Part shown: positions 34,794-64,000 of the stretch, piece by piece
Layout: the number at the start of each line of letters is the position of its first letter
How positions within the stretch are numbered: the stretch's first letter is position 1
Position numbers and translations under genes: made by a program
Assembly (NCBI GenBank): GCA_944388995.1
Contig: CALXKN010000008.1
Coordinates: 17,160 to 81,159 of the forward strand
DNA: 64,000 bases
DNA from: an uncultured Spirochaetota bacterium
GTDB lineage: Bacteria; Spirochaetota; Spirochaetia; JAFGXN01
Direction of reading: 5' to 3'
Notes under the pieces: generated by a model
Told to the model about the DNA's origin: nothing
What the model saw: only the letters and a program-made list of their open reading frames with translations
Database searches by the model: none

Positions 34794-35228
34794 TCAATTT
34801 TCCGATATTATTTTTTTGATTTCTTTTATAACGGAATTTAGTTTTTTCTGTTCTTCTTTACTTTTCGGAATCAAGTCGGAGCAGTAGCGGTCTTTAAATA
34901 AATCGGGACGGGAAACATAAAAAATTTCTTTGAGATTTTCACATCCTTTGTTTTTTCTCAAACCGTCAATGATTTTTCCCTCTATGAATTTCATCGTAAT
35001 TTGGAACGATGAATGGGAAACGGCTGCAATCAGTCTGGTTCCGTTTTTATCAAAATATAAAGGATAACTGTTTTCAGCCAAACCGGCGCCAACAATTTCC
35101 TTCCAGTTATGAAAAGGCGATTTTTTTACAATTTTTGATTCTTCCAGTAAAGAAGCGAGTGAAACCGTTTTTATAACTTTTCCGTATTCTTTTAATTTCA
35201 ATTCTTCAAAAAACGGACGACCGTTCAC
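34794..35228 (-). CDS. DUF721-like protein downstream of recF
   Basis: 144 aa at the position of the conserved recF-DUF721 partner. Overlaps the recF stop. Confidence 0.5.
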   Translation of the reverse strand: MNGRPFFEELKLKEYGKVIKTVSLASLLEESKIVKKSPFHNWKEIVGAGLAENSYPLYFDKNGTRLIAAVSHSSFQITMKFIEGKIIDGLRKNKGCENLKEIFYVSRPDLFKDRYCSDLIPKSKEEQKKLNSVIKEIKKIISEN

Positions 35229-37400: not shown

Positions 37401-37646
37401 AAAATTTCTCCTTATAAACAGATAACGATTAATATATTAATATATATTAATTCATTATCTTTATTACACTGTTGATTTGTTGATAATCCTTTTAAATCCT
37501 TTTAACATATAAAATAAGCTGTATAACAGTCTGTCAGTTAAAAGTGTTTTCATGTATGTAAATTGTCAGTTTCTCCTTTTTCTTTTAAAAAGCATATTCA
37601 TATCATATCAAAAAAAACAGAGTTTGCACAGTTTTTATATAAGTTA
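37401..37646. other. Candidate oriC in the dnaA-dnaN intergenic region
   Basis: 246-bp AT-rich region (aatatattaatatatattaattcattatctttatta) with DnaA-box-like TTATCAACA on both strands (37478-37486 on the minus strand, 37633-37641 on the plus strand). Confidence 0.45.
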
Positions 37647-39029
37647 TCAACAGTTTTTCAGACTGTTTTGAATTTCATTGATGTCGGATTTTAAAATGGA
37701 GTCAAACTGAATGCGGTTCGAAATTTTATTTTTTGAATTAATGACTGTTGAGTGATCCTGTCCGAAATACTCTCCGATTTCGGTTGTGGTCAGTTCCGTC
37801 ATTTGAGTTGCGATGTAAACGGCGGCTTGTCTGTGTATGATAATATTTTTTTTTCTGCTTTTTGATTTTATATCGGCGGTCGGAATATTGTAAAAGTCGG
37901 CAACTTTTTTGACAATCAAATCCATGGAAATTTTTGTATTGTTCTGAACTTTGGACATATTTTTATTCTCTTTGATATACTCTTTTGCATCTTCCAAAGT
38001 TCCCGTATCCGAATTAAAATCGATAAAGAAGAGAAAGGATTTTAAAATTCCTTCCAAATCACGGACGTTTCCGAAAATATTTTCCGAAAGATAAAAGTAG
38101 ACCTCCTCTTCCAGTTTTAAATTTTTATGATTGAAGATATTCTCTTTTTTCAGCTGTTCGGTTTTCTGCTTTAAAATTTTGAATTTAACGTCTGCCGTCG
38201 GTTCGGAAATATCAACCGTAATTCCGCTTTTAATCCGCGAAGCCAGTCTGTCGGTAAAATTCGGAAGTTCCGAAATCGGTCTGTCGCAGGTAAAACAAAT
38301 CTGTTTTCCGTTATCTTTCAGTTTATTGAAAAGAATAAAAAGTTCATGCTGAAGACCGTCTTTGCCTTTAAAAAGATGAATGTCGTCAATTAAAAAAGCG
38401 TCGGCATTTTCGAATAAAGAAAAACTTGTGTTGTTTTTTTTATCCATTTTGGATTTTACATTGTCGTAAAGGGCGTCAATTAAATCCTGGGAACTGATAC
38501 AGATGACATTCATTTCCGGATTTTCTTTGAGAATACGGTGGGCAATGGCCTGCATTAAATGGGTTTTTCCCATTCCGACCTGACCTAAAATCAAAAGCGG
38601 GTTACAGGCTTCCGATCCGATGTGTGACGCTGCCAGCAAAGCGATTTTTTTTGCGTGGCTGTTGTTCTGTCCTTCGATAAAAGTTTCGAATGTGTACAGC
38701 GGATTCAATTTACAGAATCTGTTTTCCTTGTTTTGTTTTTCCGGTGTTTCCGACGGGGATTCTTTTTTTGACGGATTCGCTACCGCAACCGGTTCTTCGC
38801 TGATGACGTAGTTTAAGGAAATTTCGTCGTCAAAACTGATGTTCAGATAGTTTTCGATATCGGACTGATAATTTTTTTTGATTTTTGATTCGATGAAAGA
38901 AGGACAGGTGATTGTCAGTGTTTTTCCGTTCAGAGAAAACGAAACATAGTCGAAAAAAGGAGTAAAATTTTTCTTTTTAATCTTTTTCAGATAATCAACC
39001 AAGTCTTCTTTCAACTCATCGTTATTCAT
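37647..39029 (-). CDS. dnaA: Chromosomal replication initiator DnaA
   Basis: AAA+ Walker A GQVGMGKTHL and a C-terminal DnaA-box-binding HTH (TEIGEYFGQDHSTVI). Confidence 0.95.
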   Translation of the reverse strand: MNNDELKEDLVDYLKKIKKKNFTPFFDYVSFSLNGKTLTITCPSFIESKIKKNYQSDIENYLNISFDDEISLNYVISEEPVAVANPSKKESPSETPEKQNKENRFCKLNPLYTFETFIEGQNNSHAKKIALLAASHIGSEACNPLLILGQVGMGKTHLMQAIAHRILKENPEMNVICISSQDLIDALYDNVKSKMDKKNNTSFSLFENADAFLIDDIHLFKGKDGLQHELFILFNKLKDNGKQICFTCDRPISELPNFTDRLASRIKSGITVDISEPTADVKFKILKQKTEQLKKENIFNHKNLKLEEEVYFYLSENIFGNVRDLEGILKSFLFFIDFNSDTGTLEDAKEYIKENKNMSKVQNNTKISMDLIVKKVADFYNIPTADIKSKSRKKNIIIHRQAAVYIATQMTELTTTEIGEYFGQDHSTVINSKNKISNRIQFDSILKSDINEIQNSLKNC

Positions 39030-39089
39030 AAATATCCCCTCACCATCATAACACAGGATTTGAAAAAGTCCAAGGAAAAAAAGCGAATG

Positions 39090-39118
39090 TTTACTTTTTA
39101 TCGGAAAAAATGTATAAT
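39090..39118 (+). promoter_or_regulatory. Promoter for gyrB (TTTACT-17nt-TGTATAAT extended -10), with the -10 box 5 nt from the ATG (leaderless candidate)
   Basis: tttactttttatcggaaaaaatgtataatgacctATG. Confidence 0.4.
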
Positions 39119-39123
39119 GACCT

Positions 39124-41058
39124 ATGCAGAAAGATTATTCGGCAAGTAATATTCAGATTTTAAAAGGTTTGGAAGCGGTCAGAAAAAGGCCTGGTATGTA
39201 CATCGGTACGACAGGCGAAGAGGGGCTTCATCATCTTGTTTATGAGATTGTCGATAACAGTATTGACGAGGCTTTAGCCGGTTACTGCGATCAAGTTGAT
39301 GTTTTCATCGAACAAGGAAATATTATAAGAGTTGAAGATAACGGACGCGGAATTCCGACAGATATTCATCCCGAAGAGGGAGTTAGCGCTCTGGAGGTGG
39401 TTTTAACTAAACTTCATGCCGGAGGAAAATTTGATAAGAATTCGTATAAAGTTTCCGGAGGTTTGCACGGCGTCGGTGTTTCTGTTGTCAACGCTCTTTC
39501 GGAATGGCTGGAAGTAACCGTTTACAGAAACGGAAAGATTTTTTATCAGCGTTATAAAAGAGGAATTCCGGAAAAGGCGGTTGCCGTCCTGGGAGAAACG
39601 GAAAGAACGGGAACGGTTGTCAGATTCAAACCGGACGGGGAAATTTTTAAGGATACGCAGATTTTCAAATTCGACATTCTTTCATCGCGTCTGCGTGAAC
39701 TTTCGTTTTTGAATAAAGGAATCAAAATCAACATTACCGATTTCAGAACTCCCGTTCCGAAAGAAAACAAATTTCTGTTTGAAGGCGGGGTAAAATCGTT
39801 TGTGTCGTTTTTAAACGAGAACAAAAAACCGCTTCAGTCGGAACCGATTTATTTTGAATCCGAAAAAGAGACCGAAAAAGGCGTTGTAAAAATTGAAGTG
39901 GCGATGGAGTACAGCGAGAGCTACAACGAGCTGATTTTGTCTTTTGTCAACAATATCAATACGCGCGAAGGCGGAACCCATCTCAGCGGGTTTAAAACGG
40001 CTTTGACAAGAGTTTTTAACGAAAAGTTAAAAACATCCAAAGTCGGTAAGCGTTCGAAGCTGACCGAACCTTTGAGCGGTGAAGATACCCGCTTCGGTTT
40101 GACGGCCGTCGTCTCGGCAAAAGTTCCCGACCCTCAGTTTGAAGGGCAGACAAAAGCCAAACTGGGAAATACCGAAATCAGAAAAATTACGGAAACAATC
40201 GTTTACGATAATCTGCTGCTGTATTTTGAGCAGAATCCCGATACGGTCGAAGTGATACTTTCAAAAGCGGTGGAATCTTCCATGGCGCGGATGGCCGCTC
40301 AGCGCGCGCGCGCGAATGTGCTTCGGAAAAACAGTCTGGAAAGCGGATCCCTTCCCGGAAAATTGGCCGACTGTTCGGAAAAAGATCCGTCGCTTTGTGA
40401 GATTTACATCGTTGAGGGAGATTCAGCAGGAGGAAGCGCCAAAGGAGGGCGTGATAGCAAACATCAGGCCATTCTTCCTCTTTGGGGAAAAATGCTGAAT
40501 GTCGAAAAAGCCAGAATCGAGCAGGTGGTAGACAACGATAAACTGAAGCCGGTGATTCAGGCTTTGGGAACAAACGTCGGAAAGCACTTTAATTTGGAAA
40601 AGTTACGGTATGACAAAGTCATCATTATGGCCGATGCCGACGTTGACGGTTCCCATATCCGTACACTGCTGCTGGCGTTTTTTTTCCGCTATATGACGCA
40701 GTTAATCGAGACCGGGCATGTTTATCTGGCAATGCCGCCGCTTTATAAAATCGAATATAAAAAAAAGCACCATTACGCATACGACGATAATGAAAAAGAC
40801 CGGATTCTGAACGAGATCGGCGTTTCGGAAGAAGAGAATTCTGTAAAAATTCAACGGTACAAAGGTCTCGGAGAGATGAATCCGGAACAACTTTGGGATA
40901 CAACGATGAATCCGGAAACAAGGCAAATGATGAAAGTGACAATGGAAGATGCCGTTGAAGCCGACAGAATTTTTACCGTTTTAATGGGAAGCGAAGTCGA
41001 GCCCAGGAAAAAATTCATTGAAGAAAACGCGTTGTCGGTCACTAATCTGGATATTTAG
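39124..41058 (+). CDS. gyrB: DNA gyrase subunit B
   Basis: GHKL ATPase motifs, Toprim EGDSAGG and a C-terminal tail. Confidence 0.95.
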   Translation: MQKDYSASNIQILKGLEAVRKRPGMYIGTTGEEGLHHLVYEIVDNSIDEALAGYCDQVDVFIEQGNIIRVEDNGRGIPTDIHPEEGVSALEVVLTKLHAGGKFDKNSYKVSGGLHGVGVSVVNALSEWLEVTVYRNGKIFYQRYKRGIPEKAVAVLGETERTGTVVRFKPDGEIFKDTQIFKFDILSSRLRELSFLNKGIKINITDFRTPVPKENKFLFEGGVKSFVSFLNENKKPLQSEPIYFESEKETEKGVVKIEVAMEYSESYNELILSFVNNINTREGGTHLSGFKTALTRVFNEKLKTSKVGKRSKLTEPLSGEDTRFGLTAVVSAKVPDPQFEGQTKAKLGNTEIRKITETIVYDNLLLYFEQNPDTVEVILSKAVESSMARMAAQRARANVLRKNSLESGSLPGKLADCSEKDPSLCEIYIVEGDSAGGSAKGGRDSKHQAILPLWGKMLNVEKARIEQVVDNDKLKPVIQALGTNVGKHFNLEKLRYDKVIIMADADVDGSHIRTLLLAFFFRYMTQLIETGHVYLAMPPLYKIEYKKKHHYAYDDNEKDRILNEIGVSEEENSVKIQRYKGLGEMNPEQLWDTTMNPETRQMMKVTMEDAVEADRIFTVLMGSEVEPRKKFIEENALSVTNLDI

Positions 41059-41067
41059 GAGTCGGCC

Positions 41068-43518
41068 ATGGAAGAAACGCAGCCGGGAAATATCATTCCC
41101 GTATCCATAGAAGATGAAGTCAAACAGTCTTATCTGAATTATGCCATGTCGGTTATCGTCAGCCGCGCGTTGCCGGACGTCCGCGACGGACTGAAACCGG
41201 TTCACCGCAGAATCTTATACGCGATGAATGAACTGGGACTGGCGTCAAATAAAGAAACCAAAAAATGCGCCCGCATTGTCGGTGAAGTTTTGGGTAAGTA
41301 CCATCCGCACGGCGATCAGTCGGTTTACGACGCGTTGGTCCGTATGGCGCAATGGTTTTCGCTGAAGTATCCTCTGATTTACGGCCAGGGCAATTTCGGA
41401 AACTTGGACGGCGATTCGGCCGCCGCCATGCGGTATACCGAAGCCAAAATGGAAAAGTACGCTGAATTGATGATGACAGACATCAATAAAGATACGGTTG
41501 ACTGGATGCCGAATTATGATGAATCGACGCAGGAACCGACCGTTCTTCCTTCAGCTTTTCCGAATTTGCTTGTCAACGGATCAAACGGAATTGCTGTCGG
41601 TATGGCGACGAATATGGCTCCGCATAATATCAACGAAGTCTGCGCTGCTGTTTCCGCCTATATCCGGAATCCCGATATTACCGTTGAAGAATTGATGCAG
41701 TATATAAAAGGCCCCGATTTTCCGACCGGCGGTCTTATTTACGGTACAGAAGGAATTAAAAAAGCGTACAGAACGGGTCGCGGAAAAGTTTTGATTCGGT
41801 CAAAGTGTTCGATTGAGACAATGAAATCCGGAAGGATGTGCATTGTTGTTACCGAAATTCCTTACATGGTCAACAAAAAGTCGTTGCTGGAACGGATTGC
41901 CGATTTGGTGAAAGACAAAAAAATCGAAGATATTTCCGCTCTGCGCGATGAATCTTCCGACAGGGTTGGCGTCCGGATCGTTATTGAGTTGAAAAAAGAC
42001 GCCAATGTCAAATTGGCGCTCAATAAACTTTATCTGCTTTCCGATCTCCAGAAAAGTTTCAGTATTATCAATTTGGCTTTGGTGAAAGGCCGTCCGGAAA
42101 CATTAAATTTAAAACAGCTGATTTTTCATTATGTTGAACACCGGAAAGAAGTGGTTACCCGCAGAACGGTTTTCGATTTGAATAAAGCCAAAGCCCGCTG
42201 TCATATTCTGGAAGGGTTAAAAATTGCGCTTGCCAATATCGATGAAATCATCGCCCTTATTAAAGCGTCAAAAACGGTTGATGAGGCAAGAAAGCGCTTG
42301 ATTGAACGTTTTGCCTTTTCCGAAATTCAAGCCAACGCCATCCTCGAAATGAGACTTCAGAAACTGACCAACCTGGAAACGGAAAAAATCCTGAACGAGT
42401 TGGCGGAAATCCTGAAAATGATTGCGTATTACGAAGACTTGCTGACACATGAAGATAAACTGATGGGGGTTGTACGGTCGGAAATCGAGCAAGTTTCCGA
42501 AGCAAATCAGTCAGACCGGCAAACCGAAATTCTGCTGCAGGAAGCGGAAGAAATCGACGCCGAAGACATGATTGCCGAAGAAAACGTGGTTGTTCTGATT
42601 TCAAACAAAGGTTTTATCAAACGGCAGCCCGTTTCATCATACCGGATTCAAAACCGCGGCGGCGCCGGTTCTTCTTCGACAAAATTTCATGTTGACGATT
42701 TTCTTGAACATCTTTTTATTGCCTCAACTCATGAGTACATCGTCTTTCTGACAAACGAAGGACGGGCTTATTATCTGAAAGTTCACGAAATTCCCGAAAG
42801 CAGCAAAGCGGCTAAAGGAACGCATATCAAACAGCTGCTTTCCATTACCGCAAACGAAGAGATTTCCGCTGTAGTAGCTTTAAAGGAATTTAATGAAACT
42901 TCGTTTTTATTTATGGCAACCGGATGCGGAAATGTTAAGCGTCTGGCTACATCAGAGCTGGAAAACGCCAAAACGCGCGGAAAAATCGTAATCCGTCTGC
43001 AGCAGGGCGACCGCCTTGTCAGCGTTATTCCGACAGACGGAAAACGGGAAATGTTTCTCGTTACAAGAAGGGGGCTTGCCCTCCATTTTAAAGAGGAAGA
43101 CGTCCGCGTTATGGGAAGAACCGCCTCCGGCGTGCGCGGAATCAGATTAACCAAAGGTGATGAAGTCGTTGCCGTTCTGTCTTTTAAGGAAAACGAACAG
43201 CTTTTTCTGATTTCCGAATTTGGATTTGCAAAGAGAACTAATCTTGAAAACAGCACTTCGCACTCGCGCGGATCGAAGGGAATCATTTACTATAAAGCCG
43301 GAGAAAAGACAGGCGAACTGGTCGGCGCTCTATGCGTTTCAGAAAAAGACGAATTGGTCTGCATTACCTCTCAAGGAATGACATTAAAATTGAAAGTTGA
43401 TCAAATCCCCGTATTGGGAAGATCTGCTTCAGGCGTGCGTGCGGTTCGCGTAAAAGAACCTGATTGTCTCGTCGGAGTGGCGCGCGTTGTTAACGAAGAT
43501 GCTCCGGATGAAAAATAA
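41068..43518 (+). CDS. gyrA: DNA gyrase subunit A
   Basis: Active-site region AAMRYTEAK (catalytic Tyr), GyrA-box-like C-terminal beta-pinwheel repeats. Confidence 0.95.
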
Positions 43519-55224: not shown

Positions 55225-55253
55225 ATAGTAAAAGAAAGCCGCCGTCCTGTCAA
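55225..55253 (-). promoter_or_regulatory. Promoter for the oppA-like gene (TTGACA-17nt-TACTAT), with the -10 box 6 nt from the ATG (leaderless candidate)
   Basis: Minus-strand sequence reads ttgacaggacggcggctttcttttactatggcggcATG, immediately abutting repeat copy A. Confidence 0.45.
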
Positions 55254-55254
55254 C

Positions 55255-55421
55255 CTTTTCGTTTTTTGGGCGCGCGCCCCTGCGGGGCGCCGGGCTTTCC
55301 GCTGCAATTCGCAGCCTCCCTGCGCCTTCACCGCGGCAAAGCTGCCGCTTTGCCCTGCGCCTTCTCTCCGTCGGCAGCTCATTTCCGCTTCAATCCCTCG
55401 CGCCTTCGGCAAGGTGCTGCG
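55255..55421. repeat. GC-rich 166/167-bp structured repeat, copy A
   Basis: About 99% identical to 56426..56591 (a single 2-bp indel). Contains a GGGCGCGCGCCC palindrome and hairpins gctgc-aattc-gcagc and ggcaaagc-tgcc-gctttgcc. About 68% GC in a genome of about 50% GC. Confidence 0.9.
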
Positions 55422-55616
55422 GAAATCGGCATTTTATTGTTTTAGTGTAAAAATGGGAACTTCCGAAAACAGTCAACCGTTTTTCGGAAAAATAACTGCC
55501 CTAAACGTATTTTTGTGTTATAATAACTCCAATAAAAATTTCGTATGGCAAACACAGCAAAAGCAAAACCCGAAAAAAACGCCGATTAAAACCGGAGCGG
55601 AAGATTCGGGAGAAAC

Positions 55617-55922
55617 TTGGAGCGATCGGGTATGAGCTGTAATCTTCCTGAAAGCGTGGTTTTCGATATTGAACGATTCGCAAAGAAAAACAAGATTAAA
55701 AAGGTCGTTCTGTTTGGCTCCCGCGCGAGGGGCAATCATTCGGAACGAAGCGACATTGATTTGGCGGTCAGCGGTGGAAACGCGGCGGATTTTTATTACG
55801 ACGTCAATGAAGAAGCGCGGACTCTTTTAATTTTTGATGTGGTCAATCTGGACGGACCGGTCAGCGGCGAACTGCGCGCCGAAATAGAAAAGGACGGAGT
55901 TTTACTCTATGAAGAAATTTGA
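55617..55922 (+). CDS. Minimal nucleotidyltransferase (MNT), MntA-like antitoxin of a type VII TA pair
   Basis: GS-x9-DxD nucleotidyltransferase motif (LFGSRARGNHSERSDIDLAV). Overlaps the downstream HEPN gene by 14 nt. Confidence 0.8.
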   Translation: MERSGMSCNLPESVVFDIERFAKKNKIKKVVLFGSRARGNHSERSDIDLAVSGGNAADFYYDVNEEARTLLIFDVVNLDGPVSGELRAEIEKDGVLLYEEI

Positions 55923-56304
55923 CAATTTTTGCAAAGCGCTTTCGAATTTGCGGGAAGGATTGCAGCTTGAAGAACCGTATTCTGTCGTCGAACGGACGGG
56001 CATCATCGGGCTGTTTGAAATTTGCTTTGAGCAGGCATGGAAGCTGATGAAAGCGGTTTTGGAAGAGCACGGCAGGACAATCGACCGCGTCGGTTCCCCG
56101 AAAGTTGTCATTCAGCTTGCATATCAGAGCGGGATGATTGACGACAGCGAAAAATGGCTTTCCCTGCTCAGAGATCGAAATATCCTTGCTCACACCTACA
56201 GCGACGAAGATTCGCTTGCCGTGATTCGAACGTTAAAGACGGACTACGAGCCCTTGTTCGCCACCCTCAAAGAAGAGATTGAAACGCGCCGGCTTTCGGC
56301 GTAA
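55909..56304 (+). CDS. HEPN-domain protein, HepT-like toxin
   Basis: HEPN Rx4-6H motif RNILAH in the C-terminal helix. Size and pairing are typical of HepT/MntA pairs. Confidence 0.75.
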   Translation: MKKFDNFCKALSNLREGLQLEEPYSVVERTGIIGLFEICFEQAWKLMKAVLEEHGRTIDRVGSPKVVIQLAYQSGMIDDSEKWLSLLRDRNILAHTYSDEDSLAVIRTLKTDYEPLFATLKEEIETRRLSA

Positions 56305-56425
56305 AGCGGAGGCGCGAAACAACTGAGTCCGGTATGAAAGTAGAAGAAATGGGAGCGAAAACTCTTTCAATCGCCACTGATTCTGCCAGCATCTTTACAT
56401 TTGGCTCCGCCCCCCCTCGCTGAAT

Positions 56426-56591
56426 CTTTTCGTTTTTTGGGCGCGCGCCCCTGCGGGGCGCCGGGCTTTCCGCTGCAATTCGCAGCCTCCCGCGCCTTCA
56501 CCGCGGCAAAGCTGCCGCTTTGCCCTGCGCCTTCTCTCCGTCGGCAGCTCATTTCCGCTTCAATCCCTCGCGCCTTCGGCAAGGTGCTGCG
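56426..56591. repeat. GC-rich 166-bp structured repeat, copy B
   Basis: Direct repeat of 55255..55421, located between the convergent HEPN gene and the 961-aa gene. Confidence 0.9.
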
Positions 56592-56655
56592 AAAGAGGCG
56601 TCTGAAAACTATAAATATGAGAACAATCTCATTTAAACCTCATCCATTTTTATCT

Positions 56656-59541
56656 TCAGCAGAAATGCGCCATATCGCGCGGATAATACTTGCAGTCGTG
56701 CAGTTCCGTGTCGTCAAGCCCCAGCGCCTTTACCAGGGCAGCAGACGCTATGCACCAGTACCCGCGGTACTGGTTCTTTTTCAAGTCAAATTTTGTTATA
56801 AGCCCATCAGTCTTCGTGTGAATCCACTGTCTTTTAAGATACCGTTTTAACCGCTCAACAGCCGCCGCTTTATTCTCTTTTGAAAGCAGTACCACCTCAT
56901 ATACCGCATTGGAATATTTCGGACAGCAGAGCTTTTCCGTGCGTATCTGCCAGGATGAGTCCAGCGTCTGCATAAGGAAATCCAGATAAAAATCCCGCTG
57001 TTCCGATTTTTGTAACAATTTTCGATAGTCATCCAGAAATTCAGTCCTGTTAAAAAGCATAATCAAGTACAGAACAGTTTCCATATCTTCATAATTATCA
57101 TTGCCGTCCTGTGCGTCTATCAAATGACGCAAAATCAGGTCTACTTCGGGAAGCAGCTCATGCATATCTAGCCCTAAGGAATATCCTGTATAAAATTTGT
57201 AAAATGCATAAGTATATATTTGATATTTAAACGCTCTTATGTCCGATTCTGCCTGATGTTCATCAGTCTCAATATTATGATGATGATACGTTTGCAGTAT
57301 TTCTTTCAGCTTTTGGGAATCTTTCTTGAATCTTTCGTCAAAATATTCCTGGGGTTTGACTTTATCCCTCATCATTCTTACCCGGGGCGGAAGTTTTTCC
57401 CGCTCCTCCTCCGTAAGAAATTGCGACAGTTCAACTAAAAAGGGCTCTATAAACTCCGACATGAGTTTCGCTTTATTCCCGGCTGAGTGATCATAAGGTA
57501 TTTCAATTGCCGATGTCCGCCGTTTCTCATCCTTCCACAAGCGTCCTATTTTAATAAATGAACCGCCTTTCTCAAATATGTACAACGATATAATCAGTGT
57601 GCAGTCTTCATACTCACATTCTATATAATCTTGCTCCCCCAAGCAGTAATCTCTGTAGGTAAGATTCCTCAAAGTGGTTATTATCCAGGGTATCCACTCT
57701 TTTTTGATGACAACACTATCCCATGACTGCCATGACCCGGTACCGAAACGGCTGCCGGTTCTGGTGTTGATTCGTAGTTCGCCTTTGGGACTCCAGGGCG
57801 TGGGAAGTTTTTTCCGTTCTTCTTCAGGAAGAAATTGTGACAAGGCCACTAAGAAGGGTTCTATAAATTCCGACATGATTTTCAAGTCGTTGTCCGATTC
57901 TTCAAAATTAAATTCGAAACGGGTATAACGCCACTTTGATGTCAGGGTATAACTCTGCTCATTTTTTGCATGCCAAGGAAAATAAGGTATTTCAAGTGCC
58001 GGCGATATCTTCTTTTCATCCTTCCACATGGGAAATATTTTTATATAGGAATACCCATCCCCTATAGGACAGATACTTAATGTTAATTGGCACGTTCCCC
58101 ATTTATTTATGATGCTTTCAACTCCTGTTTGATAATTATCAACACTAAGATTTCTCAATGTGCTTATTATCCAGGGTATCCGGTTTTTTTGTATAACAAT
58201 ACTTTTCTGCTGCCCGCCGCCGAATGTACCGGTTCTTTTTCCGTTAATCCGTAATTCATCGTTATCTAATTCCTCGAAGCTGTATTCAAAATCGGCATTC
58301 AGAGTTTTTTTGCTTTGATATTTTGTTATCTTCTCTATTTTGGCTACTATCGATTCGTCGTCCGACTTATCGGTTTCGCCTGCATACCAATCTTTGCCTT
58401 CGAGCCATACCCCGAACCAGAAAGGAAGATCCCCCCAAGGTCTTTGACAGAGTTCTTTCTTTTCGTTGACACTCCAGGGGGGCGACAGTTTACCCCTTTC
58501 TTCTTCCGTGAGAAACTGCGACAATGCAACCAGAAACGGCTCTATAAATTCCGACATTAATTTTGTTTCTTTCCGGGATACATAGGGTATTTCAATATTC
58601 CATGAACTCTTATTTTCATTTTTCCAGACAGGATAAATTTTGATATAGGAATAATCAAAGGGTACTACATTTATAATAAAACTTAAATTACAGTAACCGT
58701 ATTCATATACGAGAGTTTGCGGGGTGTTATAATCGTCGATAGTGGCATTTCTTAGTGTGGTAATGATCAAAGGTATCCACGCTTTTTTTATGATAATACT
58801 TTCCCATTGTCCCCTGCCGAATGAATCTGTTCGCTTTGCATTGATTTCCAACTCGTCATCATTTAATTCTTCATTGTCAGCTTTTTCCTCAAAATAAAAT
58901 TCGAAATGAACATTCCCGCCCTTACTGATCAGGTATTCTTTTTCTGCCAGTCCGTATTGTGTTATACCGGTCATTGCTTTGAAAAAATTGAGGGAACCGC
59001 TTTCCTTATCGGCAAAAATGATGTTCTGTTTTTTGTTTTCCCTCCAGGGAGGCGGAAGTTGTGTTCTTTCTTCTTCGGTAAGGAATTGTGCCAATTCAAC
59101 CAAAACAGGTTCGATAAATTCCGCCATTAACCTGCTTTTATCCCAGGGTAGATATGGTATTTCAATAAACGGTGTCGTTTTTTCCTTCGGTTCCTTCCAT
59201 ATGGGCATTATTTGAAGGGTCGCATAATCTTTGGCAGATGGTAAAAACTCCAGATTGACTTGACATTCTTCATATTCGTGAACGATATGTCTGTTCCAAA
59301 TCCCTTCCGGAAAGTTGATGTCGTAATCCTCAAAAGGAAGGGTTCTCAGTGTGGTGATAATCCGGGAAATCCACGCTTTTTTTATGACGATACAGTAATA
59401 CAAAGGCATACGTTCCGCTTCATCCAACAATGGAAAGGTTATTTTTTCGAAAATCCGTATTTCGTCGTTGTCCGATTCCTCAAAATGAAATTCAAAGGTA
59501 TCGGATATTTCGGCATCTCCCCTTCTGCCTGTAATGAACAT
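56656..59541 (-). CDS. Large modular protein with four rearranged ~170-200-aa tandem repeats plus a C-terminal domain paralogous to ORF 59781..60401
   Basis: Repeats fall at roughly aa 16-212, 213-417, 418-541 and 542-~740, with shared motifs FEFxFEESDNDELRI..KRTxxFGxGQWxSIxIKKxWIPxIITTLRN..DY, ..YIKIxPxWKxExK..EIPY.. and KLMSEFIEPFLVxLSQFLTEEERxKLPPPW. The C-terminal ~200 aa is about 70% identical to the stand-alone ORF upstream. Confidence 0.7.
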   Translation of the reverse strand: MFITGRRGDAEISDTFEFHFEESDNDEIRIFEKITFPLLDEAERMPLYYCIVIKKAWISRIITTLRTLPFEDYDINFPEGIWNRHIVHEYEECQVNLEFLPSAKDYATLQIMPIWKEPKEKTTPFIEIPYLPWDKSRLMAEFIEPVLVELAQFLTEEERTQLPPPWRENKKQNIIFADKESGSLNFFKAMTGITQYGLAEKEYLISKGGNVHFEFYFEEKADNEELNDDELEINAKRTDSFGRGQWESIIIKKAWIPLIITTLRNATIDDYNTPQTLVYEYGYCNLSFIINVVPFDYSYIKIYPVWKNENKSSWNIEIPYVSRKETKLMSEFIEPFLVALSQFLTEEERGKLSPPWSVNEKKELCQRPWGDLPFWFGVWLEGKDWYAGETDKSDDESIVAKIEKITKYQSKKTLNADFEYSFEELDNDELRINGKRTGTFGGGQQKSIVIQKNRIPWIISTLRNLSVDNYQTGVESIINKWGTCQLTLSICPIGDGYSYIKIFPMWKDEKKISPALEIPYFPWHAKNEQSYTLTSKWRYTRFEFNFEESDNDLKIMSEFIEPFLVALSQFLPEEERKKLPTPWSPKGELRINTRTGSRFGTGSWQSWDSVVIKKEWIPWIITTLRNLTYRDYCLGEQDYIECEYEDCTLIISLYIFEKGGSFIKIGRLWKDEKRRTSAIEIPYDHSAGNKAKLMSEFIEPFLVELSQFLTEEEREKLPPRVRMMRDKVKPQEYFDERFKKDSQKLKEILQTYHHHNIETDEHQAESDIRAFKYQIYTYAFYKFYTGYSLGLDMHELLPEVDLILRHLIDAQDGNDNYEDMETVLYLIMLFNRTEFLDDYRKLLQKSEQRDFYLDFLMQTLDSSWQIRTEKLCCPKYSNAVYEVVLLSKENKAAAVERLKRYLKRQWIHTKTDGLITKFDLKKNQYRGYWCIASAALVKALGLDDTELHDCKYYPRDMAHFC

Positions 59542-59780
59542 TGCATCTACCAGTTTAAGAAAAGCTTTTGTATCAGCGGATTGGGCAGATTCTTCATGTT
59601 GATCGTCTTCTTTATTATATTTTATTCCGACTCCTAAGGAACGCAGCCGTCATATCGAAGGGGTGCAACGGTATGACGGCCAACACTCCGCTTTCACGCG
59701 GTGGTCTTATGCTGTTCATGTCGATACCGGACCGCTTCCGACACAACCGAATGAAGTTTTCCGATTTTCCGAATCAATTT

Positions 59781-60401
59781 CTAACAGAAATGGGTCATAT
59801 CGTAGGGATAGTATTTACAGTCTTTCAGTTCCGTATCGTCAAGTTTGAGGGCTTTTACCAAAGCGGCGGCGGCGATGCACCAATACCCCCGGTACCACCC
59901 TATTTTCAGATCCCGGTTGGTTATAACACCTTCGGTTAATGACATAAACCACTGCCTTTTAAGATACCTCTTTAACCGCTGGACGGCTTCCGCCTTGTTT
60001 TCTTTTGACAGCATTACCACCTCGTATACCGAATTGGTCTCTTTGGGGCAACGAAGTTTTTCCGTACTTATCTGCCATGTGGAGTCTACTATCTGTACAA
60101 GATAATCCAGGTAAAAATCCCGCATTTTCGATTTTTGTAATAACTCCTTATATTCATCCAGAAATTCTGTCCGGTTAAAAAGAATGATTAAGTATATAAT
60201 CATTTCCATATCATCATAACCTCTGTCCCTTTCTCTCGTTGTATCAATCAAATTTCTTATGATAAGGTCTACTTCGGGAAGCAGCTCATTCATACCAAGC
60301 CCCAGGGAATAGCCTGCATAAAATTTACAAGCTGCTTCCATATATATGTGATATTTAAACGACCATACATTATATTTTTCCGGATGGCTTATTCTCTTCA
60401 T
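59781..60401 (-). CDS. Stand-alone paralogue of the C-terminal domain of the 961-aa protein (unknown function)
   Basis: FKYHIYMEAACKFYAGYSLGLGMNELLPEVDLIIRNLID...YRGYWCIAAAALVKALKLDDTELKDCKYYPYDMTHFC aligns with FKYQIYTYAFYKFYTGYSLGLDMHELLPEVDLILRHLID...CKYYPRDMAHFC. Confidence 0.65.
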   Translation of the reverse strand: MKRISHPEKYNVWSFKYHIYMEAACKFYAGYSLGLGMNELLPEVDLIIRNLIDTTRERDRGYDDMEMIIYLIILFNRTEFLDEYKELLQKSKMRDFYLDYLVQIVDSTWQISTEKLRCPKETNSVYEVVMLSKENKAEAVQRLKRYLKRQWFMSLTEGVITNRDLKIGWYRGYWCIAAAALVKALKLDDTELKDCKYYPYDMTHFC

Positions 60402-60642
60402 ATTTACTCATCCGTTCAGCAAGATCAGACGCATCCTTATTATATCTTTCCCTAAAATATTCTTCTGTTTTTATGGTGTCTCTCATCTGTTATTCCTTGT
60501 GTATTTTGTAAATTTTTGGTTTATTCTCGTTATACATAACATTGCCATTTTCATCAAGTTGGTAATATGTTACTTTTCCTCCCTTCGGAACGCCTGCGGC
60601 GTGGCTACAATCCTTTGTGCGAGAAGATTTTTATCAATGGTG

Positions 60643-60700
60643 TCCGTACACACCCATTGATGTTGTCAAAGAACTCCTTCTGTACGGAGATAGGGGGAGG
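60643..60700. repeat. 58-bp perfect direct repeat, copy 1 (copy 2 at 63943..64000)
   Basis: tccgtacacacccattgatgttgtcaaagaactccttctgtacggagatagggggagg is identical at both sites. Contains an internal 8-bp inverted repeat (tccgtaca/tgtacgga). Confidence 0.9.
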
Positions 60701-60701
60701 G

Positions 60702-60929
60702 TTATTCAAAAGTTATTACCATATGCGAACCTGCCGTTTTTTCGGTTACTTTCTGTATAATCTCTTTTTTGTCATCTTCAGTTAATGGCTCGTTTTCTGG
60801 AACAAGCCAATTTTTCATTGAACTTTTATAACAGACAAAACCGCCTACTATCATTTCGCCTGCGATTCTCGCAGTTCTGCCATCGAGTTCTACATCTATG
60901 TATGTGTTTGTTCCGGTTATTTTTGTCAT
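60702..60929 (-). CDS. Small hypothetical protein, possibly an immunity protein; a truncated copy of its 5' end lies at 62318..62350
   Basis: 75-aa ORF 8 nt downstream of a DUF600-like gene. Its first ~10 codons recur after the second DUF600-like gene. Confidence 0.45.
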   Translation of the reverse strand: MTKITGTNTYIDVELDGRTARIAGEMIVGGFVCYKSSMKNWLVPENEPLTEDDKKEIIQKVTEKTAGSHMVITFE

Positions 60930-60938
60930 ATATTAATC

Positions 60939-61271
60939 CTATGCATTATCCCATTCGTCTTGAAGAGCCTGATCCCATTCAAAGGTCATATCAAAGTGAC
61001 CGTTCTTTTCAAGGGTGTAAATAGCTTTGTTCCATTGTGCAAAATGTAACTCTTTTGCACTATTATGAAATTTTATTAAATCAATTTTTGTTTCTCGATT
61101 AAGTGCTAAGTTTAAAGCATTTTTCCATTCTCCATTAATCTGATATTTTGCATTCGTACCAATATATTTATCACTACATTCAATATTCAGTTCAATTTTA
61201 TCCCAAGAGGAATCAATACTATCATTCAATTGCGAACCAATATTTTTATATATATCTTCAATATTTTTCAT
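60939..61271 (-). CDS. DUF600/EsaG(YezG)-like immunity protein, paralogue 1
   Basis: N-terminus IYKNIGSQLNDSIDSSWDKIEL resembles EsaG IYNEIANEISSMIPVEWEKVY. Its C-terminal block NGHFDMTFEWDQ is shared with paralogue 2. Sits immediately downstream of the nuclease toxin fragment. Confidence 0.55.
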   Translation of the reverse strand: MKNIEDIYKNIGSQLNDSIDSSWDKIELNIECSDKYIGTNAKYQINGEWKNALNLALNRETKIDLIKFHNSAKELHFAQWNKAIYTLEKNGHFDMTFEWDQALQDEWDNA

Positions 61272-61283
61272 AAATACTCCTAT

Positions 61284-61648
61284 TAATTTAAGAAGAACAA
61301 ATTTTCTGTTTTTTCTATTTTTCCATCCGATGTTTTTATAATGTATGTTACATCAAAATCTGTCGGTCTTAGATTATCAGCATAGTTTATTTTTATATCA
61401 ACTTCAACCTTTTTTCCCTCTGAAAGTGCATCGTTCCATTTTTTTTCCATGGTTTTCCATTCACCATTATTTAGTGTGGCGGTTTGTGGAACATAATTTA
61501 TTTGTTCTCCAGGACCATTGAAAATTCTTGCAATAATATGTCCGCCCTGGTCATCACCTTTAATACCATCTTTTATATCAACTGATTTTCCTTGTTGATA
61601 AACATTTCTGTCTTTTGTTTCAAGTTTTAATTCTCCGCTTACTTTGTT
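61284..61648 (-). pseudogene. Orphan C-terminal fragment of a His-Me-finger (Serratia-type / Endonuclease_NS) non-specific nuclease toxin domain; no start codon
   Basis: A stop-to-stop frame translates to ..KDGIKGDDQGGHIIARIFNGPGEQINYVPQTATLNNGEWKTMEKKWNDALSEGKKVEVDIKINY.., with the His-Me-finger catalytic His in GGH (canonical DRGH) and the metal-ligating Asn in N-Y-VPQ (Serratia nuclease N-I-TPQ..LNQGAW). In-frame tag and taa stops lie upstream and there is no ATG before the motif. Confidence 0.55.
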
Positions 61649-61731
61649 TTACAACTATTTTCTTTTACTTGCAATTGTTCCAAAACGATTAAGTGCAGCA
61701 ACAATATCTTCATAATCAGCATCTATTTCAT

Positions 61732-62262
61732 CTAACTGTCCCAGATTTCCTTAAATTTTAAACCTTTGATACTGTTTTTCTTAACAATATCTATAAACTC
61801 ATCTGTTACAAAATAATCTCGAATAATTAATTGATTTTGTAGTTTAACTTGAAAAAGAGGTGGATAATTGTTTTCCTTAAAATAATATTGCTCAACACCT
61901 AAAATATCATTCTCAAAATACTTATATTTAGTTTTTTTTCGATCTAAGCAGTCCAAAACAGTTAAATTATTTAATAGTACAAAATCGTCATTAAGCGGAA
62001 CAAATCTTATATTTATTTGAGAAATGTCAGAAAGTACTGCCATAAATTTTTTATTTATGAAGAATCCTCTACAATCATAACATTCACAAATATCCCCTGC
62101 AGGATTATTAGAATCTCTATCGTATTCTAATTGAAAATCAGAAGGAATGCTTATTTCTATACCTTTATTAAACTGACGTAAAATTTTTCTATCAGTTTCT
62201 TCGTTTTTTATATAGCATCCTTTGTAATTATCAATATCTGTTTCTAAAATGTATATTTTCAT
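61732..62262 (-). CDS. Hypothetical protein (putative immunity protein) with a G8 tract in its RBS
   Basis: 176-aa ORF in the immunity-gene array. The run ggggggggatatATG sits immediately upstream of its start. Confidence 0.5.
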   Translation of the reverse strand: MKIYILETDIDNYKGCYIKNEETDRKILRQFNKGIEISIPSDFQLEYDRDSNNPAGDICECYDCRGFFINKKFMAVLSDISQINIRFVPLNDDFVLLNNLTVLDCLDRKKTKYKYFENDILGVEQYYFKENNYPPLFQVKLQNQLIIRDYFVTDEFIDIVKKNSIKGLKFKEIWDS

Positions 62263-62266
62263 ATAT

Positions 62267-62274
62267 CCCCCCCC
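62267..62274 (-). repeat. Homopolymeric G8 tract (C8 on the plus strand) 4 nt upstream of the start codon of ORF 61732..62262
   Basis: Plus strand reads atatatccccccccTAATTG; the ATG of the minus-strand gene is at 62260-62262. Confidence 0.9.
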
Positions 62275-62362
62275 TAATTGTGAATTTTTAAGAAACCACT
62301 CAATAATTCCTTTCGGATTGTTTGTATGTGTTTGTTCCGGTTATTTTTGTCATATATTAATC

Positions 62363-62686
62363 CTATGCATTATCCCATTCGTCTTGGAGAGTTTGATCCC
62401 ATTCAAATGTCATATCAAAATGACCATTCCTTTCAAGAGAGTAAACAGCTTTGTTCCATTTATGCTCAGGCGACATAGATTCTTGAAGTTCAAAAACGCT
62501 ATCCATTAAAGTATTTACAGTTAATAAAGGAAACTTTAATTCTTTTTTTTCAAACGATGATAAAGTATATTCTGCCTGAAATGAACACATTTTATTTAGA
62601 CTTGATTCTATTTTTACAGTCACTTTTTCCCATTTACCGGAAATATTATCTTGAACCGCCTTGCCTAATTCTTTATATAAATCCAT
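62363..62686 (-). CDS. DUF600/EsaG(YezG)-like immunity protein, paralogue 2
   Basis: GKWEKVTVKIE ... WNKAVYSLERNGHFDMTFEWDQTLQDEWDNA. Its C-terminal 40 aa is nearly identical to 60939..61271. Confidence 0.55.
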   Translation of the reverse strand: MDLYKELGKAVQDNISGKWEKVTVKIESSLNKMCSFQAEYTLSSFEKKELKFPLLTVNTLMDSVFELQESMSPEHKWNKAVYSLERNGHFDMTFEWDQTLQDEWDNA

Positions 62687-62732
62687 AGCATCTCCATTAA
62701 TTGTTGAATATTTTTTTGAATAGTTGGCTCAT

Positions 62733-63842
62733 TTATTTCTCTTTATTTAAAATAAACAGATACTCAGAGACGTGTATATTACGGTTATTCAAATTTCTGC
62801 TTCCCCGGAATGTATTATAAGTCATTTCAACGGTTTTCAGTTTTCCGTAGTGTTCCAGCATTGTTTTCATTTGCTCAAAAGTAATAAATCCTTCAGAATT
62901 ATAAGAGATAATGACAAACTTTGAATCAATTTTATCTATGATTTTTTCCATGGATTTTAAGGCTGAATAAGGTTTGTTGAATTCCGAGCGGTTCCAATCC
63001 TGAGTTATCCCTGAAACTTTACTGATTTCAGCATCCAGCCTGTTCTTTATGATAAGATTCAGCATAAAATAATTTGAACCATAGGGATGCTGGTTATACG
63101 GGGGATCCAGATAAGTAATATCTATTTTTTTTAATTCCCCGGCAAGTTCCACAGCATCTTTTTTATAGATTTTAACCTTTGAATTGAAATTGCTTAAAAC
63201 CGGCTCTTTCAGTTCTATTTTTCCAAAAATGCGGGTTAAAGCGTTTTTCCCGGCAGCGCCGAAACATCCGATTCCGGTATTTTTGTCCTTGTAAAACCCT
63301 TTGAAAACCCCGCTTGTATTGACATGAACCGAAGCCTCCGTTACGAGCGGCGCTAAAAAAAATTTTTTCATGTCTTCTTCCTGCACCACTTTATCAATCA
63401 GACTGCGGTAAGTGTCGATTAACAGAGCGTTCTCATGGGTATAAAAAACCCTTTCTCCTCTTTGAATATTTCCGTCATCCTGAGGGGCATAATTTTTTGT
63501 GATAATTCTCGGTTCTTTTTTGCTGCGGCACATTTCTTCTATTATTGATTTATATTCCCGCCATTTTTCATGCGGAAAATCTTTTTTGTCAGTCAGATAG
63601 CATTCATTGATGAGGCGGGAATATTCTTCCAGATCATTGGCAATTAAAACACTGCTGTATTTTTTCAGCATCCGGGCAACAATTCCCGAACCGGAGAAAA
63701 TATCCGCACAAACAAGTTTTTCTTTTCCCAATAAACCGGCAATTTTTTTGACTTCTTCTTCTATATTCCTGATAAGCTGCCGTTTGTTCCTGATATAAGT
63801 AATGATCTGTGCAGTAAGATATTCTTTATTTTCTTCTTTCAT
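62733..63842 (-). CDS. DNA N6-adenine methyltransferase (DPPY motif), either orphan or part of an R-M system beyond the window
   Basis: Motif I DIFSGSG and motif IV TYLDPPYNQHPYGSNYF. No restriction endonuclease gene is visible within the window. Confidence 0.7.
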   Translation of the reverse strand: MKEENKEYLTAQIITYIRNKRQLIRNIEEEVKKIAGLLGKEKLVCADIFSGSGIVARMLKKYSSVLIANDLEEYSRLINECYLTDKKDFPHEKWREYKSIIEEMCRSKKEPRIITKNYAPQDDGNIQRGERVFYTHENALLIDTYRSLIDKVVQEEDMKKFFLAPLVTEASVHVNTSGVFKGFYKDKNTGIGCFGAAGKNALTRIFGKIELKEPVLSNFNSKVKIYKKDAVELAGELKKIDITYLDPPYNQHPYGSNYFMLNLIIKNRLDAEISKVSGITQDWNRSEFNKPYSALKSMEKIIDKIDSKFVIISYNSEGFITFEQMKTMLEHYGKLKTVEMTYNTFRGSRNLNNRNIHVSEYLFILNKEK

Positions 63843-63942
63843 GGCTGTAAAGATTTATATTGTTCCAAATTTCCGGTTTATTCTATGCTTTTTGACAGAC
63901 CTTTATACTCAGTATCCCTCTCCGCAAAAATCAACCCGGATT

Positions 63943-64000
63943 TCCGTACACACCCATTGATGTTGTCAAAGAACTCCTTCTGTACGGAGATAGGGGGAGG
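63943..64000. repeat. 58-bp perfect direct repeat, copy 2 (cut by the window end)
   Basis: Identical to 60643..60700, about 100 bp upstream of the methyltransferase start. Confidence 0.9.

What the first reader, a model, noticed from the sequence alone, without database searches (positions are those of the whole stretch)
59781..60401. Stand-alone gene duplicating the C-terminal domain of the adjacent 961-aa protein
The 206-aa ORF is about 70% identical over its full length to the last ~200 residues of the downstream 961-aa protein, from FKYxIY...GYSLGL.M.ELLPEVDLI through to ...CKYYPxDMxHFC. A free-standing copy plus a fused copy of the same domain is the pattern seen both for toxin CT/immunity swapping and for decoy or anti-defence modules. 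The domain itself could not be identified.
Basis: seen in the sequence. Interest (0 to 1): 0.55.

Follow-up and report, generated by a model that had tools for sequence, protein, structure and literature searches.

The report
Orphan PoNi antitoxin-immunity gene pair
The repeated domain is PoNi, a known bacterial immunity protein against an injected DNase toxin. It occurs once as a frameshifted stand-alone gene and once fused to four copies of a rare second immunity-like domain, inside an ordinary multi-immunity gene island of a gut Treponema.

Summary
The 206-aa ORF (59781-60401, minus strand) matches residues 762-961 of the 961-aa ORF (56656-59541, minus strand) at 68% identity (E=7e-93). dN/dS is about 0.18 and dS about 1.2, so these are old paralogs that have been kept under selection.

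The domain can be identified. Both copies are PoNi (Pfam PoNi_N/PoNi_C, formerly DUF1910/DUF1911, also called Imm-PA2201), the immunity protein for PoNe DNase toxins.

The stand-alone copy is a frameshifted allele. A 2-bp deletion splits a normal 235-aa gene into 38-aa and 206-aa ORFs, and intact alleles exist in other strains.

The first 720 residues of the 961-aa protein are four diverged copies of a rare domain of about 150 aa, which I call REP. REP has no Pfam, NCBIfam or PADLOC match. Its predicted fold is Pur-alpha/Whirly-like (sPC4L), a fold already reported for immunity proteins. Stand-alone REP genes elsewhere always follow the 3' end of one uncharacterised toxin-like gene.

Both genes sit in a toxin-less island with Imm74, YezG-like and Imm11-like genes and a nuclease-toxin remnant. 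This is a polyimmunity locus containing a polyimmunity protein. Alleles in the population are mosaics of the two copies, which points to recombination between them.

This is a new variant of a known kind and of modest interest.

The parts
59781..60401 (-). Stand-alone PoNi gene, downstream part (206-aa ORF). It covers most of PoNi_N and all of PoNi_C.
   Evidence: PF08929 PoNi_C E=6e-20 on residues 94-202. It is 98% identical to intact 235-aa alleles such as P0018. The GYWCIA and YPYD motifs are at residues 172 and 198.
60370..60486 (-). 38-aa ORF holding the original start and N-terminus of the stand-alone PoNi gene (MRDTIKTEEYFRERYNKD...). A 2-bp deletion between 60394 and 60393 puts it out of frame with the rest of the gene.
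   Evidence: A DNA alignment with the intact allele in L011 shows GAAGAG--AATAAG against GAAGAGGTAATAAG. The same split (38 + 206 aa) was called on several independent metagenome contigs.
56656..57375 (-). PoNi module fused at the C-terminus of the 961-aa protein (residues 723-961). It starts at an internal MRDKVKPQEYF that corresponds to the start codon of stand-alone PoNi genes.
   Evidence: PF08929 E=1.4e-17 on residues 849-957 and PF08928 E=1.1e-4 on residues 725-831. The alignment to the free copy begins at this ATG.
59014..59505 (-). REP unit 1 of the 961-aa protein (residues about 13-176).
   Evidence: Internal-repeat HMM hit, E=1e-57. Aligned in A2.
58471..58917 (-). REP unit 2 (residues 209-357). 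This unit was used for the structure model.
57790..58311 (-). REP unit 3 (residues 411-584). The first strand of unit 4 (RFEFNFEESDND, residues 541-552) is interleaved before the last helix of unit 3.
   Evidence: HMM hits at 411-532 and 534-584. The arrangement is conserved in all 17 homologues. The secondary structure in the full-length model agrees.
57379..57789 (-). REP unit 4 (residues 585-721).
   Evidence: HMM hit E=1e-57.
60702..60929 (-). Imm74 immunity gene (75 aa), directly upstream of the stand-alone PoNi.
   Evidence: PF15603 E=1.3e-15.
60939..61271 (-). YezG-like immunity gene (110 aa).
   Evidence: PF04634 E=4.5e-4, just below the curated cut-off. It is a paralog of the 107-aa gene at 62363-62686.
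61283..61450 (-). 55-aa C-terminal remnant of an Endonuclea_NS_2 nuclease toxin. This is an orphan toxin-tail cassette.
   Evidence: A weak precomputed PF13930 hit on the identical product in several contigs. A full 212-aa Endonuclea_NS_2 ORF (E=1.9e-33) lies at the far end of the same island in L020.
61732..62262 (-). Imm11-like gene (176 aa). The match is weak.
   Evidence: PF07791 E=5.3e-4, below the cut-off.
62363..62686 (-). YezG-like immunity gene (107 aa).
   Evidence: PF04634 E=7.5e-5, 23.4 bits against a cut-off of 21.7.
62733..63842 (-). D12-class N6-adenine DNA methyltransferase embedded in the island.
   Evidence: PF02086 E=9e-18. PADLOC MTase_II E=4e-118.

Best explanation
The two similar sequences are paralogous PoNi immunity modules (DUF1910+DUF1911, also called Imm-PA2201). 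They sit in a toxin-less polyimmunity island on the chromosome of a gut Treponema whose closest named relative is Candidatus Treponema excrementipullorum.

PoNi proteins bind the PoNe family of PD-(D/E)xK DNase toxins directly and block them. Competitors inject these toxins through type V, VI or VII secretion systems. Each PoNi protects only against its own toxin variant.

The stand-alone gene is normally 235 aa. In this strain a 2-bp deletion splits it into 38-aa and 206-aa ORFs, so it is either N-terminally truncated or inactive.

The second copy is the C-terminal module of a polyimmunity protein. Its N-terminal 720 residues are four diverged copies (43-51% identical) of a second domain, REP. 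I infer that REP is also an immunity domain, directed at a different and still uncharacterised toxin.

No PoNe toxin lies in the island, so the most likely role is pre-emptive protection against incoming toxins. Keeping two diverged PoNi copies widens the range of toxin variants that are covered. Recombination between the copies generates new alleles.

What is shown: the homology, the family membership, the frameshift, the island content, the mosaic alleles, and the linkage of REP to one toxin-like gene. What is inferred: toxin binding and neutralisation, the immunity role of REP, and the orphan (defensive) role.
For: Family: PoNi_C is far above the curated cut-off in both copies and PoNi_N is found in the fused copy. 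The family motifs GxW and YPxD are present. The only PDB sequence matches are weak ones to DUF1911 proteins (E about 0.03).

Function of the family: PoNi binds and neutralises PoNe specifically, and orphan PoNi genes have been noted (PMC6688995).

Selection: dN/dS is 0.18.

Free versus fused: 101 of the 120 listed homologues are 225-245 aa, and 105 of 120 start with MRD. The fused form occurs in only 17 clusters, with 3 to 5 REP units.

Frameshift.

Island: Imm74, two YezG-like genes, an Imm11-like gene and an Endonuclea_NS_2 remnant. The full island in L020 adds Endonuclea_NS_2 and AHH toxin tails and contains no full-length toxin. This matches the published definitions of polyimmunity loci and polyimmunity proteins (PMC3482391).

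Recombination: block mosaics are seen at 67 informative sites in both fused alleles (P0039, P0005) and free alleles (P0041, P0030, P0037, P0035, P0051).
Against: No PoNe or other intact toxin was found next to any of the Treponema PoNi genes examined, so the cognate toxin is unknown. The free copy is frameshifted here, so its activity is doubtful. The immunity role of REP rests only on gene context and fold, and its partner gene has no recognisable domain and only one other homologous cluster. Some mosaic alleles could be chimeras from metagenome assembly. The full-length structure model is poor (pLDDT 54), so nothing can be said about how the five modules are arranged.
Confidence: 0.75

Rival explanations
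1. The stand-alone copy is simply a decaying pseudogene. The fused copy is the only functional PoNi, and the free copy matters at most as a silent donor for gene conversion. This is compatible with the main explanation for the fused copy.
For: A 2-bp deletion removes the first 29 or so residues from the frame. The same lesion is seen on several contigs from different samples. Intact alleles are 235 aa. Mosaic alleles show exchange between the copies.
Against: An in-frame ATG directly follows the lesion and leaves a 206-aa ORF with no further stops. That ORF is 98% identical to intact alleles, so the lesion is recent. dN/dS of 0.18 shows long-term constraint, although it says nothing about the time since the deletion.
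Confidence: 0.4
2. The PoNi genes are not orphans. They provide self-immunity to a PoNe-type toxin encoded elsewhere in the same Treponema genome.
For: Of PoNe genes, 90% sit directly upstream of a DUF1911 gene (PMC6688995), so a cognate toxin normally exists somewhere. Only 64 kb of this genome was available.
Against: No toxin lies in the island or next to the related Treponema PoNi genes examined. The island fits the toxin-less polyimmunity pattern.
Confidence: 0.25
3. The 961-aa protein is a nucleic-acid-binding or regulatory protein. Its four Pur-alpha/Whirly-like units bind single-stranded DNA or RNA, and they are not immunity domains.
For: The best structural matches are the ssDNA/RNA binders Pur-alpha and Whirly.
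Against: Sequence identity to those matches is 7-13%. The same fold is used by known immunity proteins. The domain is fused to PoNi, forms tandem gene arrays, and is strictly linked to the tail of a toxin-like gene.
Confidence: 0.07
4. This is the first reader's alternative: the free copy is a toxin C-terminal cassette, or a phage-type decoy or anti-defence module.
For: Free-plus-fused copies are typical of toxin cassettes. Orphan toxin tails do occur in this island.
Against: The domain is the immunity partner, not the toxin. There are no PADLOC hits and no phage genes, and the locus lies on the chromosome near dnaA and gyrBA.
Confidence: 0.03

Closest known systems
PoNi (PoNe immunity protein; Pfam PoNi_N PF08928 + PoNi_C PF08929, formerly DUF1910/DUF1911; Imm-PA2201 of Zhang et al. 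2012)
   Same: Both copies match the family HMMs and carry the GxW and YPxD motifs. The size of the intact stand-alone allele (235 aa) and its predicted all-alpha structure are typical of the family.
   Different: There is no adjacent PoNe toxin. One copy is frameshifted and the other is fused behind four copies of another domain. The E of the GxWxxE motif is replaced by A in both copies (GYWCIA). The family has not, to my knowledge, been reported from spirochaetes: the phyla listed for Imm-PA2201 do not include them.
Polyimmunity loci and polyimmunity proteins (Zhang et al. 2012, PMC3482391), for example tandem-SUKH proteins
   Same: The island is a co-directional array of unrelated immunity genes with no full-length toxin, and its content varies between strains. 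One protein combines several immunity-type domains, both repeats of one kind and a second kind.
   Different: The domain combination (REP x3-5 plus PoNi) is not among those listed. The paper found extended polyimmunity loci only in proteobacteria, bacteroidetes, firmicutes and actinobacteria, whereas this one is in a Treponema.
sPC4L-fold immunity families (sPC4L-Imm1/2 and some CdiI proteins; PMC9424270), with the Pur-alpha/Whirly fold
   Same: [quoted passage not shown] Like them, REP is encoded directly after a toxin-like gene.
   Different: No sequence match to any Pfam or NCBIfam model was found. The partner toxin is different and uncharacterised. REP also occurs as 3-5 tandem units in a single polypeptide.
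Acquired interbacterial defence (orphan immunity) gene clusters of gut Bacteroidales
   Same: Both are islands of orphan immunity genes in a gut bacterium, thought to protect against the toxins of neighbours. The concept is cited in the abstract of PMC10470768; the rest is from my own knowledge.
   Different: This island is in a different phylum. No mobile-element or recombinase genes were seen in the part of the island covered here.

Membership tests
PoNi (PF08928/PF08929) | Match to PoNi_C (DUF1911) above the curated Pfam cut-off | tested here: met
   72.5 bits (free copy) and 64.9 bits (fused copy) against a cut-off of 25.
PoNi (PF08928/PF08929) | An N-terminal PoNi_N (DUF1910) domain, which often accompanies PoNi_C | tested here: met
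   Fused copy: 22.7 bits against a cut-off of 22.4, on residues 725-831. The match is marginal. The free copy lacks the first 29 or so residues because of the frameshift. A related 237-aa homologue (L014) scores 22.5 bits.
PoNi (PF08928/PF08929) | Conserved motifs listed for Imm-PA2201 (GxWxxE, YPxD) | tested here: inconclusive
   GYWCIA and YP[YR]D are present in both copies. The E of GxWxxE is replaced by A.
PoNi (PF08928/PF08929) | Encoded immediately downstream of a PoNe (PD-(D/E)xK DNase) toxin gene | tested here: not met
   The upstream neighbours are Imm74 and the other PoNi copy. There is no toxin in the whole island or beside the related genes examined. Orphan PoNi genes are explicitly allowed for in PMC6688995, so this does not exclude membership.
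PoNi (PF08928/PF08929) | Binds and neutralises a cognate PoNe DNase | not testable with these tools
   This needs co-expression rescue and pull-down experiments.
Polyimmunity protein (Zhang et al. 2012) | Several immunity domains in one polypeptide | tested here: met
   One PoNi module plus four REP units. The immunity nature of REP is inferred from context and fold, not shown.
Polyimmunity locus (Zhang et al. 2012) | A tandem, co-directional array of immunity genes without an intact toxin, variable between strains | tested here: met
   All island genes are on the minus strand. The island's content differs between contigs L011, L020 and L040 and the window.
sPC4L / Pur-alpha-Whirly fold superfamily (Pfam clan CL0609) | Two beta-sheet-plus-helix halves (beta-beta-beta-beta-alpha twice) packed helix to helix | tested here: met
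sPC4L-Imm1/2 immunity families (PMC9424270) | Sequence membership in those families | not tested
   Their profiles were not available here. No Pfam, NCBIfam or PADLOC model matches REP.

The most novel reading that the evidence does not exclude
REP is a previously undescribed immunity family with the Pur-alpha/Whirly (sPC4L) fold. Its cognate toxin is the unannotated C-terminal domain (about 350 aa) of a protein encoded next to an eCIS_core (DUF4157) gene, which would make that toxin a new effector of a contractile-injection or polymorphic toxin system. In gut Treponema the free PoNi gene, even when frameshifted, would serve as a silent cassette that re-tunes the specificity of the fused polyimmunity protein by gene conversion. 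This would be an immunity-side counterpart of toxin-tip cassette switching.
Probability: 0.3. Interest if true: 0.5.

Novelty: new variant of a known kind. Interest (0 to 1): 0.33.

Why it matters
The core finding is ordinary. It is a known immunity family duplicated inside a polyimmunity island. It shows that this defensive strategy, best documented in Bacteroidales, Firmicutes and Proteobacteria, also operates in gut Treponema.

Two by-products could be useful. The first is a rare, unannotated immunity-like domain (REP) with a consistent toxin-like partner, which gives a ready-made candidate toxin/immunity pair to test. The second is a natural series of mosaic PoNi alleles that could help map what determines PoNe/PoNi specificity.

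Tried and rejected
- The promoter and terminator scan of 56300-64000 gave no more sites than shuffled sequence (26 against 24.6, and 8 against 6.1). It says nothing about co-transcription.
- The AlphaFold2 model of the full-length 961-aa protein had pLDDT 54 and pTM 0.29. I used it only for secondary structure and not for a fold search.
- The afdb50 fold library was unavailable.
- The third large homologue search, with the 801-aa partner of REP, returned only itself and one relative. It gave no trafficking domain or name. Pfam and the PDB sequence search also found nothing for that protein.
- PADLOC and NCBIfam gave no hits for the PoNi ORFs or for REP.
- I suspected that the 186-aa form of the free gene on some contigs was a second lesion. 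The DNA is identical to the window over the first 240 aligned bases, through and beyond the alternative ATG, so it is only a different start-codon call.
- I considered that the 410-aa gene upstream of a related PoNi (L046) might be the missing toxin. It is a REP-repeat protein separated from PoNi by a frame change at the junction.
- Toxin-cassette and anti-defence readings were rejected (see the rival explanations).

Full report
**Observation**

The two ORFs are exactly as described: 59781-60401(-) encodes 206 aa and 56656-59541(-) encodes 961 aa. BLASTP aligns 201 residues of the short ORF to residues 762-961 of the long one at 68% identity and 82% positives with one single-residue gap, E=7e-93. 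Nucleotide identity over the aligned codons is 72.5%. Nei-Gojobori gives dN=0.22 and dS=1.22, so dN/dS is about 0.18, and synonymous divergence rises towards the 3' end. The copies are therefore old paralogs that have both been under purifying selection. They are not a recent tandem duplication.

**What the domain is**

Pfam identifies both copies as PoNi_C (PF08929, formerly DUF1911), at E=6e-20 and 1.4e-17. The long protein also has PoNi_N (PF08928, formerly DUF1910) at residues 725-831.

PoNi is the cognate immunity protein of PoNe, a PD-(D/E)xK DNase toxin domain delivered by type V, VI and VII systems. It binds the toxin directly and protects only against its own partner. The authors also note that PoNi can occur as an orphan gene (PMC6688995). 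[quoted passage not shown] Both copies carry GYWCIA and YP[YR]D. The only sequence matches in the PDB are weak ones to proteins named 'DUF1911 domain-containing protein' (E about 0.03).

**The free copy is a frameshifted allele**

The DNA alignment of the two copies does not stop at the ATG of the 206-aa ORF. It runs on to an upstream ATG at 60486. A 38-aa ORF there (60370-60486, MRDTIKTEEYFRERYNKD...) matches residues 723-750 of the long protein.

Database homologues of the short ORF are overwhelmingly stand-alone proteins. Of the 120 listed, 101 are 225-245 aa and 105 begin with MRD. The closest is P0018, which is 98% identical, 235 aa long and uninterrupted. Alignment with its DNA (L011) shows a 2-bp deletion in the window between 60394 and 60393: GAAGAG--AATAAG against GAAGAGGTAATAAG. 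The same 38 + 206 aa split was called on several contigs from different samples, so it is a real allele and not a sequencing error. Whether the truncated 206-aa product is made or active is unknown.

The '186-aa' variant on other contigs has DNA identical to the window over the first 240 aligned bases, which run through and beyond the alternative ATG. It is only a different start-codon call.

**The fused copy**

The PoNi module of the 961-aa protein begins at an internal MRDKVKPQEYF. This is the position where stand-alone PoNi genes begin.

The preceding 720 residues are four copies of a unit of about 150 aa, which I call REP. The units are 43-51% identical to one another. One oddity is conserved in all relatives: the first strand of unit 4 lies before the last helix of unit 3.

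Only 17 database clusters share this fused architecture, with three or four REP units. A scan of species-representative genomes adds a five-unit version (1142 aa) and a frameshifted one. Almost all are in gut Treponema or other spirochaete genomes assembled from metagenomes. One contig of Candidatus Treponema excrementipullorum is 100% identical over REP unit 2. In one relative (L046) the REP-repeat ORF and the PoNi ORF are separate and overlap by 14 nt. The fusion is therefore a junction between two neighbouring genes that can open and close.

**What REP is**

REP has no Pfam, NCBIfam or PADLOC match. An exhaustive profile search of 1.84 billion representative proteins found only 42 clusters. 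Several of these are stand-alone proteins of 150-195 aa.

Gene context agrees with an immunity role. I fetched ten distinct stand-alone-REP cassette contexts that reach upstream, on 14 contigs: L012, L013, L016-L019, L028, L029, L030, L032, L034, L036 and L037. In every one, the REP gene directly follows the 3' end of one conserved gene, often with a 4-nt overlap. That upstream gene is either full-length (801 aa, downstream of an eCIS_core/DUF4157 gene) or a C-terminal remnant of 33-170 aa. This is the classic signature of a toxin-tail/immunity cassette. REP genes also form tandem arrays of two or three paralogs.

The partner protein has no recognisable domain and only one other homologous cluster. 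'Toxin' is therefore an inference. No remnant of it occurs in the window.

**The neighbourhood**

Upstream of the free PoNi, on the same strand, lie these genes:
- Imm74
- a YezG-like gene
- a 55-aa remnant of an Endonuclea_NS_2 toxin
- an Imm11-like gene
- a second YezG-like gene
- a D12 DNA methyltransferase

A contig that continues beyond the end of the window (L020) shows the rest of the island: a 212-aa Endonuclea_NS_2 ORF, a YezG-N::AHH chimera, a 180-aa gene and another Imm74, followed by housekeeping genes on the opposite strand. It has no full-length toxin and no PoNe. Other strains carry different cassettes upstream of the PoNi pair.

This matches the published descriptions of heterogeneous polyimmunity loci and of polyimmunity proteins (PMC3482391). 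The rest of the window is ordinary chromosome, including dnaA, dnaN, recF, gyrB and gyrA.

**Recombination between the copies**

I scored 67 alignment columns at which the two window copies differ. Many database alleles are block mosaics of the two types.
- The fused proteins P0039 and P0005 switch from the 'fused' type to the 'free' type near ELLPEVDLI or further downstream.
- The free proteins P0041, P0030, P0037, P0035, P0038, P0051 and P0054 carry internal 'fused-type' blocks.
- P0031, P0032 and P0042 end in the 'fused' type.

This indicates repeated exchange between paralogs. There is a caveat. These are metagenome assemblies, contigs often break in this island, and short identical stretches could produce chimeras. 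Several of the mosaic clusters, however, have many member sequences or occur on many contigs.

**Mechanism (inferred)**

Each PoNi module would bind and block one variant of an incoming PoNe-type DNase, and each REP unit one variant of the uncharacterised partner toxin. The 961-aa protein would then be a polyvalent shield, and the free gene a second specificity. In this strain the free gene is probably weakened or silent, but it would still be available as a recombination donor.

**Verdict**

The domain is known and the arrangement is an established type. What is new is limited to three things: the REP family and its partner, the REPxN-PoNi architecture, and the presence of such an island in Treponema.

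Noticed in passing
window 55252-55424 and 56423-56594: A 173-bp direct repeat (98.8% identical) flanks the MNT/HepT-type toxin-antitoxin pair (55617-55922 and 55909-56304, plus strand). One metagenome contig (L008) has a single repeat copy and no MNT/HepT between the 961-aa gene and the solute-binding-protein gene. The pair therefore appears to be gained or lost by recombination between the repeats.
   Followed up: partly
window 57790-57917 (residues 542-584 of the 961-aa protein): The first beta-strand of REP unit 4 (RFEFNFEESDND) sits before the last helix of unit 3. This interleaved or segment-swapped junction is conserved in all 17 homologues. Its structural meaning is unknown, because the full-length model was too poor to judge.
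   Followed up: partly
P0138, P0139, P0144, P0152, P0153 (stand-alone REP proteins); window 57340-57384: Many stand-alone REP proteins end in a conserved tail, ...FVxEIxPxDYF. It resembles the first residues of PoNi (MRDxxKxxEYF) and the REP/PoNi junction in the window protein (RVRMMRDKVKPQEYF). It could be a shared docking segment, a recombination junction, or coincidence.
   Followed up: no
L016 2450-4855, L012 1-1098, and remnants in L028-L037: An unannotated protein family has a conserved C-terminal region of about 350 aa (47% identity between two distant members). It always lies directly upstream of stand-alone REP genes. In L016-L019 it follows an eCIS_core (DUF4157) gene. It is a candidate new toxin.
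   Followed up: partly
window 61283-61450 (-) and L020 6316-6744: Orphan toxin-tail remnants occur in the island. One is a 55-aa Endonuclea_NS_2 tail in front of a YezG-like gene. In a related contig, a 142-aa ORF joins a YezG-like N-terminus to an AHH nuclease tail, which looks like a recombination scar.
   Followed up: partly
window 59542-59620: Homologues of the 961-aa protein start 26 residues further upstream (MKDKEDDQHEEYVPSADTKAFLKLVDA...). In the window that start codon is lost (…IKYNKEDDQHEE…), so translation probably begins at the internal ATG at 59541.
   Followed up: partly
window 62733-63842 (-): A D12-class N6-adenine DNA methyltransferase (PADLOC MTase_II, E=4e-118) is embedded among the immunity genes. 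No restriction enzyme was recognised next to it in the window or in L020-L023.
   Followed up: no
window about 34800-43500: This is the replication-origin region: DciA-like, recF, dnaN and dnaA on the minus strand, and gyrB and gyrA on the plus strand. G+C is low (0.36-0.39), and the GC skew changes sign near 36-38 kb.
   Followed up: no
L028 (binned as Paludibacteraceae) and L029 (binned as Methanobrevibacter): REP cassettes nearly identical to those in Treponema appear on short contigs assigned to unrelated taxa. Mis-binning is the most likely cause, and horizontal transfer is the alternative.
   Followed up: no
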